Shown here one piece after another: positions 9,881 through 43,668 of a DNA stretch of 64,000 nt. This stretch comes from Octopus vulgaris. Its lineage: Eukaryota. How positions within the stretch are numbered: the stretch's first letter is position 1; every line of letters starts with the position of its first letter. The stretch is from assembly GCA_951406725.2 (NCBI GenBank), contig OX597821.1, positions 74,214,001 through 74,278,000 of the forward strand, in the 5' to 3' direction. Position numbers and translations under genes: made by a program. The notes under the pieces were generated by a model, which was not told the origin of the DNA, ran no database searches, and saw nothing but the letters and a program-made list of their open reading frames with translations.

Positions 9881-10101
9881 ATAAAAATATCCCAAACTAA
9901 GTAAAACGAAAAAAAAAAAAAAAAACTAGAAATTCTTCATCGTAGTCTTTCTAGGTAACGCTATGAAGAGATGCTAAAATTTCCTCTTCCCAAACCAAAC
10001 TCTCCCTCCCCATCTCCCCACACTTTTCCTGCTCCTCTCTTTAGCGTATCCCTCTCCCTTTCCCTCTCTCTCTCTCTCTCTCTCTTTCTCTTCGCTACCT
10101 C

Positions 10102-10342
10102 GCTACCCGTACTGCTATAACGTTCGTCTGATGACCTACCCGTGCACAGGCGTGCTGATGGCTGTTTTAGCGGATGAAAATCCCCTTTAGGTCATTAACG
10201 AAAGTTCTTTGATCAGCCCCGCGCTCTACGGATCGCGGCAGCAGGCAAGCAAGACTCTCTATACAGTAATAGCTGTTTTTTCGTGAACGAAGCTTGATCG
10301 CTTCAAGTCTATGGCCCAGAACGGCATAGCAGAACGAGTGGT
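10102..10342. ncRNA. Candidate structured RNA or conserved non-coding element (unidentified)
   Basis: Ungapped closing stem 10102-10125/10319-10342 (20 of 24 positions pair), 10-bp stem 10129-10138/10188-10197 and seven small hairpins. No other copy in the window. Confidence 0.4.
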
Positions 10343-10515
10343 AAGAAGGATATCAAGTGTACGAAACAGCAACAACAACAACAACAACAACATAATCAAG
10401 GCAAAGAGAGAAGCGGGGTGGCTGGTAGTGCTGGAGAGAAAGGTGAGGAAAAACCAGAGGAAGTGAAAACAGAAAAATATAAAATAAAACATTCCCGAAA
10501 ATTACTGTGATTTTA

Positions 10516-43549: not shown

Positions 43550-43668
43550 CGTTTACAGCACCTAAGTTTCCCAAGCGGTCACCCATCTAAGTACTAACTA
43601 GGTTCGACGTTCCTTAACATAGGTGATCGGACGAGAACCGCTGTTGTCATCGTGATATGGCCGTAAAG
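43550..43668 (-). rRNA. Divergent full-length 5S rRNA copy (probable pseudogene)
   Basis: Minus strand CTTTACGGCCATATCACG...CGGTTCTCGTCCGATCACC..GTTAAG..ACGTCG...GTTAGTACTTAGATGGGTGACCGCTTGGGAA...GGTGCTGTAAAC, followed by GTCTTTT. Confidence 0.9.

What the first reader, a model, noticed from the sequence alone, without database searches (positions are those of the whole stretch)
10102..10342. Unique ~240-nt island folding into a closing stem plus two three-hairpin domains: candidate novel structured RNA
Seen: the ends pair without gaps (10102-10125 with 10319-10342, 20 of 24 positions). Domain 1 is the stem TGATGACCTA/TAGGTCATTA enclosing GCAC-aggc-GTGC, GCTG-ttt-TAGC and GGAT-gaaa-ATCC (GNRA loop). 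A middle hairpin is CCGCG/CGCGG (10219-10238). Domain 2 is AGAC/GTCT enclosing ACAG-taatag-CTGT, TTCG-tgaa-CGAA and CTTGA-tcgct-TCAAG. An alternative pairing of TTCGT (10123-10127) with ACGAA (10198-10202) competes with the closing stem. The island is CpG-rich and complex, lies between (CT)n and (AAC)n tracts, and has no TSD or second copy here. I cannot match it to any snRNA, 7SK, SRP, RNase P/MRP or miRNA. Inference: an ncRNA or an intronic splicing/editing control structure. Alternative: an enhancer (TGACCT/AGGTCA half-sites, GGGGATTTTC Rel-like site). Strand is undetermined.
Basis: partly seen in the sequence, partly recalled or inferred. Interest (0 to 1): 0.8.

Follow-up and report, generated by a model that had tools for sequence, protein, structure and literature searches.

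The report
Conserved island in octopus POU3 desert
A single-copy, non-coding stretch of about 270 bases, shared almost letter for letter with several other organisms, lies 233 kb upstream of a POU3 nerve-development gene in a gene-poor region of an octopus genome and is likely a long-range control element for that gene; its predicted RNA fold is only modestly better than chance.

Summary
The described helices are in the sequence, but only two exceed chance: the closing stem (20 of 24 pairs) and the domain-1 stem. Whole-island folding z is -2.7 (+) and -2.4 (-); domain 2 (-0.8), the middle (+0.4) and the hairpin count are ordinary. The island is single-copy, has stops in five of six frames and matches no Rfam family; RNase P, MRP and 7SK genes lie elsewhere. 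Runs of seven organisms hold 62-100% of its sampled words; one contig from another organism differs at 3 letters plus a 2-nt gap in 278. The divergence between those organisms is uncalibrated, and there are too few changes to test covariation. New: the only cellular gene recognised in 864 kb (330 ORFs scanned) is an intronless POU class 3 gene, 233 kb downstream. Best reading (0.5): a distal enhancer-type conserved element of POU3, whose stems arise partly from oppositely oriented factor sites. A structured RNA or lncRNA exon stays open (0.25): the end-pairing is the best of 18 comparable islands, and a splice donor sits at the stem's end.

The parts
10094..10364 (.). Unique, non-coding, cross-organism conserved island (the element as a whole)
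   Evidence: Unmasked unique stretch 10108-10364; single copy; 62-100% of 29 sampled words in 20 runs of 7 organisms; organism G contig over 10103-10380 with 3 other letters and a 2-nt gap
10064..10093 (.). (CT)n tract flanking the island; the POU3 promoter region has the same layout of CT tract followed by a CpG-rich unique island
10102..10125 (.). 5' arm of the closing stem P1
   Evidence: 18 WC + 2 G-U(+) + 2 A-C(+, G-U on -) + 2 mismatches of 24; pair probability 0.93 on +, 0.83 on -
10319..10342 (.). 3' arm of the closing stem P1; overlaps the candidate splice donor
10123..10202 (.). Domain 1: 10-bp stem 10129-10138/10188-10197, extendable by 10123-10127/10198-10202; the only sub-domain above shuffle level
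   Evidence: z -3.2 (+), -3.6 (-); stem pair probability 0.95 (+), 0.57 (-)
10132..10138 (-). TAGGTCA extended nuclear-receptor-type half-site (motif recalled); forms 7 of the 10 pairs of the domain-1 stem with its inverted partner
   Evidence: two copies, reached in 2 of 3000 shuffles; motif chosen after seeing the sequence
10188..10194 (+). Second TAGGTCA half-site, overlapped by a TTAATGA homeodomain-type site at 10192-10198 (-)
   Evidence: TTAATGA in 102 of 3000 shuffles; motifs recalled
10172..10185 (.). GGAT-gaaa-ATCC hairpin; the same bases read as an octamer-like ATGAAAAT (10174, +; one mismatch) and a kB-like site (10176, -)
   Evidence: hairpin probability 0.83; motifs in 36 and 72 of 3000 shuffles (motifs recalled)
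10207..10213 (+). CTTTGAT, TCF/LEF-type site
   Evidence: 408 of 3000 shuffles, not significant; consensus CTTTGWWS from the abstract start of PMC4267635
10219..10238 (.). Middle hairpin CCGCG/CGCGG
   Evidence: pair probability 1.00, but region z +0.44
10252..10310 (.). 'Domain 2': three small hairpins; not above chance; holds both listed differences of organism G (2-nt gap at 10255, C>T at 10288)
10311..10346 (+). ATG plus 10 codons ending in phase 0 at a consensus-like splice donor G|GTAAGA (10340|10341); use as an exon end is untested
   Evidence: GGTAAG occurs 13 times in the window against 21 expected and in 360 of 3000 island shuffles
10353..10359 (+). TCAAGTG, NK2-type site (motif recalled), outside the closing stem but inside the conserved stretch
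   Evidence: 77 of 3000 shuffles; covered by the organism G contig
10365..10392 (.). (AAC)n tract flanking the island

Best explanation
This single-copy, non-coding, cross-organism conserved island lies 233 kb upstream of an intronless POU class 3 gene in a gene-poor domain, and it likely works as double-stranded DNA, a distal enhancer-type element that would bind a cluster of transcription factors and loop to the POU3 promoter. Shown: uniqueness, non-coding state, sharing across organisms, position. Inferred: purifying selection, factor binding, POU3 as target.
For: Context: of 330 top-ranked ORFs scanned from 864 kb, the only cellular gene recognised is POU3 (Pou E 1.5e-39, Homeodomain E 2.5e-19; class 3 by PDB matches; 443-aa single ORF); the other significant hits are reverse transcriptase or transposase-type domains. 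Distance 233,371 nt; 510 kb searched on the other side. Vertebrate POU3F genes carry conserved distal enhancers up to 1 Mb upstream (PMC3013142 abstract; PMC3595034 passages); CNEs cluster in gene deserts around developmental regulators (PMC5728398 passages); squid POU3 is expressed in developing ganglia (PMC4407788 abstract). Conservation. The fold is modest: 8 of 90 other unique GC-matched tiles nearby reach the island tile's + strand z of -2.2 (four of the eight are neighbours in one locus); 85 of 794 unique tiles hold a stem scoring as high as P1 (most are more AT-rich). No strand asymmetry of G-U pairs. The conserved stretch runs on past the closing stem to 10380. Several factor-type motifs are packed in 270 nt.
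Against: No chromatin, contact or reporter data. The motifs were recalled and picked after seeing the sequence, so their shuffle counts are optimistic; the TCF and Helper matches are not significant. The ends of this island pair better than those of all 17 other GC- and CpG-rich unique islands nearby (12.5 against at most 9.5), and only 15 of 500 islands reach 13. Conservation is uncalibrated: four events in 278 nt have P 0.002 at 5% neutral divergence but 0.35 at 2%. Only 330 of about 7,200 ORFs were scanned, so a host gene with small exons is not excluded. In squid, very few CNEs overlapped ATAC peaks (12 of 1187; PMC9023564 passages).
Confidence: 0.5

Rival explanations
1. The island is transcribed and works as a folded RNA: a stem-closed module of a long non-coding RNA from the POU3 domain, or a stand-alone polymerase II RNA. 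The closing stem would mask the splice donor at 10341 or serve as an ADAR substrate, and pairing of 10123-10127 with 10198-10202 would compete with it.
For: z -2.7/-2.4; P1 probability 0.93, kept at 0.67-0.77 with flanks; best end-to-end pairing of 18 comparable islands; domain 1 z -3.2 with a GNRA-loop hairpin; both listed differences in organism G are compatible with the + model, one in a linker and one G-C to G-U; P1 holds two A-C mismatches on + (10119/10325, 10337/10107), the type ADAR prefers (recalled); a structured lncRNA, Pnky, is named after vertebrate Pou3f2 (PMC12424948 passages).
Against: Domain 2, the middle and the interior are at chance level; no compensatory change, and 76% of transitions would be tolerated anyway; no G-U strand bias; no Rfam match, no box B, no Sm site, no telomere template, and a T6 run inside on + that would stop polymerase III; no structural paralogue of domain 1 in 674 kb of held loci.
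Confidence: 0.25
2. The island is a promoter plus first exon of an unannotated + strand transcript: CT tract, TATAA at 10116, start near 10145, a short reading frame from 10311 and a donor at 10341, spliced to a far downstream exon (a lncRNA, or a distal leader of POU3).
For: Same CT-tract-then-island layout as the POU3 promoter; TATAA at 10116; consensus-like donor in phase 0 after ten codons, at the edge of the stem; no AG between 10046 and 10147, which would also fit an internal non-coding exon 10150-10340.
Against: TATAA and GGTAAG are common (1241 and 360 of 3000 shuffles); no protein matched the 42-aa frame (1 candidate, none at E <= 10; weak test); 6 of 7 POU3 cluster members start at MAASATS, the seventh at a later Met, none with this peptide; a start near 10145 would leave out the 5' arms of both stems, so this reading cannot explain the pairing.
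Confidence: 0.13
3. The island is neutral unique DNA or an old transposon remnant with decayed terminal inverted repeats; it looks conserved only because the organisms that hold it are very close relatives.
For: Divergence between organisms A-G is not given; the search lists only best holders; the neighbourhood is full of retrotransposon and transposase remnants; P1 resembles an imperfect terminal inverted repeat.
Against: No second copy (the tool warns that no match does not prove rarity); no target-site duplication among the direct repeats; twelve runs of three organisms (E, F, G) all share the same 0.62 of words; 18 CpG are retained.
Confidence: 0.12

Closest known systems
Conserved non-coding elements of genomic regulatory blocks, in particular the distal enhancers of vertebrate Pou3f4 (HCNR 81675, 81728, 82478; PMC3013142) and the paralogous CNSs of POU3F2/POU3F3 (PMC3595034)
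   Same: Short, unique, non-coding, conserved; far upstream of a POU class 3 gene in a gene-poor domain; dense in factor-type motifs.
   Different: No sequence homology to the vertebrate elements was tested; enhancer activity untested; conservation depth unknown; carries an end-to-end inverted repeat that is no defining trait of CNEs.
Coleoid cephalopod CNE candidates (PMC9023564: 1187 squid-octopus candidates at 0.95 similarity and at least 100 bp)
   Same: Same class of object in the same clade; regulatory role likewise unproven.
   Different: Whether this island is among them was not checked; supplements were not read.
Pnky lncRNA (Pou3f2 intergenic; PMC12424948)
   Same: A structured non-coding RNA from a POU3 locus: the model for the RNA reading.
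   Different: Pnky is a demonstrated transcript with probed structure; here neither transcription nor structure is shown and no homology is claimed.
RNase MRP (RF00030), nuclear RNase P (RF00009), 7SK (RF00100)
   Same: Similar length and a stem joining the two ends.
   Different: No match to the models; each has its own genes elsewhere in G000.

Membership tests
CNE / distal enhancer of a regulatory block | Non-coding and single-copy | tested here: met
   Stops in five of six frames across 10102-10342, the sixth broken by the 2-nt gap in organism G; no Pfam family at curated cut-off for five island ORFs; one copy
CNE / distal enhancer of a regulatory block | Conserved above the neutral rate | tested here: inconclusive
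   About 98% identity in organism G and 62-86% of words in six other organisms; no neutral control was available
CNE / distal enhancer of a regulatory block | Lies in the gene-poor domain of a developmental transcription factor | tested here: met
   POU3 233 kb away; no other cellular gene among 330 ORFs scanned in 864 kb
CNE / distal enhancer of a regulatory block | Open chromatin, promoter contact, reporter activity | not testable with these tools
   no chromatin or reporter data
Structured non-coding RNA | Folding better than shuffled sequence | tested here: inconclusive
   z -2.7/-2.4 overall, only P1 and domain 1 contribute; 8 of 90 nearby tiles do as well
Structured non-coding RNA | Compensatory substitutions | tested here: inconclusive
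   one listed substitution (G-C to G-U), none double-sided; no power
Structured non-coding RNA | A transcript exists | tested here: inconclusive
   the two RNA runs laid were no valid test by the tool's own statement
Any Rfam 15 family (snRNA, snoRNA, SRP, vault, Y, miRNA, ribozymes) | Covariance-model score at gathering threshold | tested here: not met
RNase P / MRP / 7SK | Family model match; role not already filled | tested here: not met
   no match; separate genes at 104.8, 116.2 and 55.5 bits elsewhere
Polymerase III / Sm-class small RNA, telomerase RNA, tRNA | Box B, Sm site, telomere template, tRNA cloverleaf | tested here: not met
   motifs (recalled) absent; ARAGORN found 0 genes in the window
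MITE / non-autonomous transposon | Many copies, terminal inverted repeats, target-site duplication | tested here: not met
   one copy; no flanking duplication; only the imperfect inverted ends fit

The most novel reading that the evidence does not exclude
An uncatalogued, stem-closed, multi-branched RNA of about 240 nt, conserved in octopods and transcribed from the POU3 regulatory domain, whose closing stem masks a splice donor and carries editable A-C mismatches, so that ADAR editing or the competing helix would switch splicing of a POU3-domain non-coding transcript during nervous-system development.
Probability: 0.2. Interest if true: 0.75.

Novelty: new member of a known kind. Interest (0 to 1): 0.36.

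Why it matters
As an enhancer candidate it is a concrete, testable handle on how POU3, a regulator expressed in developing cephalopod ganglia, is controlled from a distance; the regulatory role of cephalopod conserved elements is still called unclear (PMC9023564). That is useful but ordinary in kind. If the RNA reading held, it would be a new structured RNA family in an animal clade known for heavy RNA editing (recalled), next to a neural regulator whose vertebrate counterpart also has a structured lncRNA neighbour.

Tried and rejected
Expression: no RNA holder listed in the run search; two RNA runs of organism E (about 6 in 100 of each read) laid 0 reads, which the tool calls no test; neither is used as evidence. 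The contig run of organism F laid nothing although the search gave it 0.62 of the words, so only one orthologue could be read. Viral or prokaryotic origin: one viral pattern hit is a cloverleaf that I read as a phage tRNA, sharing only the stem arms; metagenome patterns gave 0 and 39 loci, all GC 0.61-0.79 and matching at most 41 nt around the pattern; phages no match; plasmids two chance matches at E 0.7. The 7-bp core of the domain-1 stem at this spacing is common: 147 places against 211 for the reversed control. A covariance model of domain 1 built from this one sequence found only itself in 64 held sources; it could not be run on the whole genome. Hammerhead ribozyme: CUGAUGA and GAAA are present but stem II cannot close between them (read from the sequence; motif recalled). 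Coding exon: rejected. Long-range complementarity to the neighbourhood: nothing better than E 2.3. Bacterial promoter/terminator scan 0 (not suited to this organism). DNA folding z -2.0. The minus-strand column is invalid (it used + strand shuffles) and was dropped. Earlier scan notes: nothing near, nothing by sequence, eight unrelated prokaryote or phage findings by words. Literature: no description of this element surfaced in the searches (0 papers); the library lacks most subscription papers and no supplements were read.

Full report
Observation. The closing stem P1 (10102-10125 with 10319-10342) has 18 Watson-Crick and 2 G-U pairs in 24 positions. One detail fails: the domain-2 closing stem and its last hairpin share base 10307. 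The island folds better than shuffled sequence on both strands, z -2.73 and -2.40. The signal is uneven. P1 has mean pair probability 0.93 and domain 1 has z -3.2 (3 of 500 shuffles). Domain 2 has z -0.84, the middle +0.44 and the interior without P1 +0.05; the domain-2 closing stem has probability 0.08; five perfect small hairpins compare with a shuffle mean of 3.3, reached in 426 of 2000 (all). So what stands is a closing stem and one long inner stem, not two matched cloverleaves.

How unusual is that locally? A stem scoring as high as P1 arose in 33 of 1000 shuffles and in 85 of 794 unique 241-nt tiles of the neighbourhood. Eight of 90 other GC-matched unique tiles reached the island tile's + strand z of -2.2 with 24 shuffles each; four of the eight are neighbours in one locus (its minus-strand column is invalid and was dropped). 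A fairer test asked for pairing between the two ends of each unique island: this island scores 12.5-13.5 depending on boundaries, 15 of 500 islands reach 13, and it is the best of 18 GC- and CpG-rich islands, the next scoring 9.5. G-U pairs do not fix a strand: the model has 4 on + and P1 gains 2 others on -.

Identity. There is no Rfam match at gathering score in the island, and only E 1.1 and 9.6 matches with relaxed filters. RNase MRP, RNase P and 7SK each have genes elsewhere in G000. Box B, an Sm site and a telomere template (motifs recalled) are absent and a T6 run lies inside the + strand; ARAGORN finds no tRNA. Three DNA queries find one copy only, with the tool's caveat that this does not prove rarity. 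Five of six frames have stops, the sixth is broken by a 2-nt gap in another organism, and no protein relative was found for the one plausible + frame. Viral, plasmid and metagenome searches gave only chance matches.

Conservation. Twenty listed runs from 13 studies and 7 organisms hold 62-100% of 29 sampled words; two may be the source of this DNA. Twelve runs of organisms E, F and G all show 0.62. Of four runs laid, one gave sequence: a contig of organism G, at depth 3.8, covers 10103-10380 with 3 other letters and a 2-nt gap; the listed differences are C>T at 10288 and the gap at 10255 (the tool warns that a difference in one low-depth contig may be an error). The substitution turns a G-C pair into G-U on the + strand, but it is a CpG transition and 182 of 241 transitions would be tolerated by the model, so it carries no weight. 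Four events in 278 nt would have P 0.002 at 5% neutral divergence and 0.35 at 2%; the real divergence is not given and no neutral control could be run. Selection is likely, not shown. The conserved stretch continues past the closing stem to at least 10380.

Context. I read 864 kb around the window, ranked unique ORFs by composition and scanned 330 of about 7,200 against Pfam. All significant hits were reverse-transcriptase or transposase-type domains except one: a single 443-codon ORF with POU and homeodomain, class 3 by its best solved-structure matches. Sources name the protein as a POU class 3 factor of the genus Octopus. Its start codon is 233,371 nt downstream of the island on the same strand; no cellular gene was recognised in 510 kb on the other side. 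A host gene with small exons could have been missed. The POU3 promoter region has the same layout as the island, a CT tract followed by a CpG-rich unique stretch.

Mechanism, best reading (0.5). The island is likely a distal enhancer-type element of the POU3 domain. Conserved elements cluster in gene deserts around developmental regulators (PMC5728398, passages); vertebrate Pou3f4 is driven by conserved enhancers up to 1 Mb upstream (PMC3013142, abstract); POU3F2 and POU3F3 share paralogous conserved elements (PMC3595034, passages); squid POU3 is expressed in developing ganglia (PMC4407788, abstract). The island holds two TAGGTCA half-sites in opposite orientation, which by themselves make 7 of the 10 pairs of the domain-1 stem, plus homeodomain-, NK2-, octamer-, kB- and TCF-type words and six AACG. 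These motifs are recalled (the TCF consensus is from the abstract start of PMC4267635) and were picked after seeing the sequence, so they suggest and do not prove. Factor binding, looping and the target are inferred. Against: very few squid CNEs overlapped ATAC peaks (PMC9023564, passages), and the end-pairing is left to chance.

Rivals. A folded RNA (0.25) explains P1 and domain 1, the donor G|GTAAGA at the foot of P1 and the two A-C mismatches in it, and has a precedent in Pnky at vertebrate Pou3f2 (PMC12424948, passages); it lacks covariation, strand bias and support for half of the model. A promoter plus first exon (0.13) fits the CT tract, TATAA at 10116 and the donor, but these words are common, no POU3 cluster member begins with the ten-residue peptide, and a start near 10145 would remove the 5' arms of both stems. 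Neutral DNA or a transposon remnant (0.12) cannot be excluded without a divergence control.

Comparison and novelty. It works most like a conserved non-coding element of a genomic regulatory block, and meets the two features that could be tested firmly (non-coding single copy, position); conservation above neutral is inconclusive and activity is untestable here. It is not a member of any Rfam family or a MITE. In the part of PMC10735318 that I read (part 1 of 5) POU3 is not among the genes named with pan-bilaterian elements, and the search listing shows no occurrence of 'pou3f' in that paper. No description of this element surfaced in the searches; supplements, such as the CNE tables of PMC9023564, were not read and may bear on this. 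Verdict: a real, probably functional conserved element, new member of a known kind, with a one-in-four chance of being a structured RNA. Interest 0.36.

Noticed in passing
L138:413-1744 (+), G000:C8:74457713-74459044: Intronless POU class 3 gene, 443 aa; its upstream region (L046:9360-9712) has a CT tract and a CpG-rich island with two CCAAT words.
   Followed up: yes
L066:6140-6345: Unique CpG-rich island folding as one long imperfect hairpin, + strand z -5.7, stronger than the finding itself; possible miRNA precursor, editing substrate or inverted-repeat remnant.
   Followed up: no
L009:130-432, L014:5100-5250, L043:6952-7157: Further long inverted repeats in unique DNA of the same gene-poor domain (stem scores 23, 24.5 and 25).
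   Followed up: no
window 43550-43668 (-): Isolated 5S rRNA-like copy, 83.4 bits, with several non-standard pairs; probably a dispersed or degenerate copy.
   Followed up: no
L022-L030: RNase MRP (8 matches over cut-off), RNase P (4) and 7SK (3) each occur in several copies in G000.
   Followed up: no
L088:4586-4892, L089:945-1338, L094:8584-8961, L010:2616-2877, L040:6517-6773, L041:4500-4810, L049:9215-9445, L054:6068-6380: Other GC- and CpG-rich locally unique islands in the POU3 domain; candidates for further regulatory elements, conservation not tested.
   Followed up: no
L072:3814-7056 (+): Long open reading frame (1081 aa) with a reverse-transcriptase domain, a LINE-type element.
   Followed up: no
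L031:301-379: Chance viral pattern hit: a cloverleaf, read as a phage tRNA, whose outer stem has the same arms as the domain-1 stem.
   Followed up: partly
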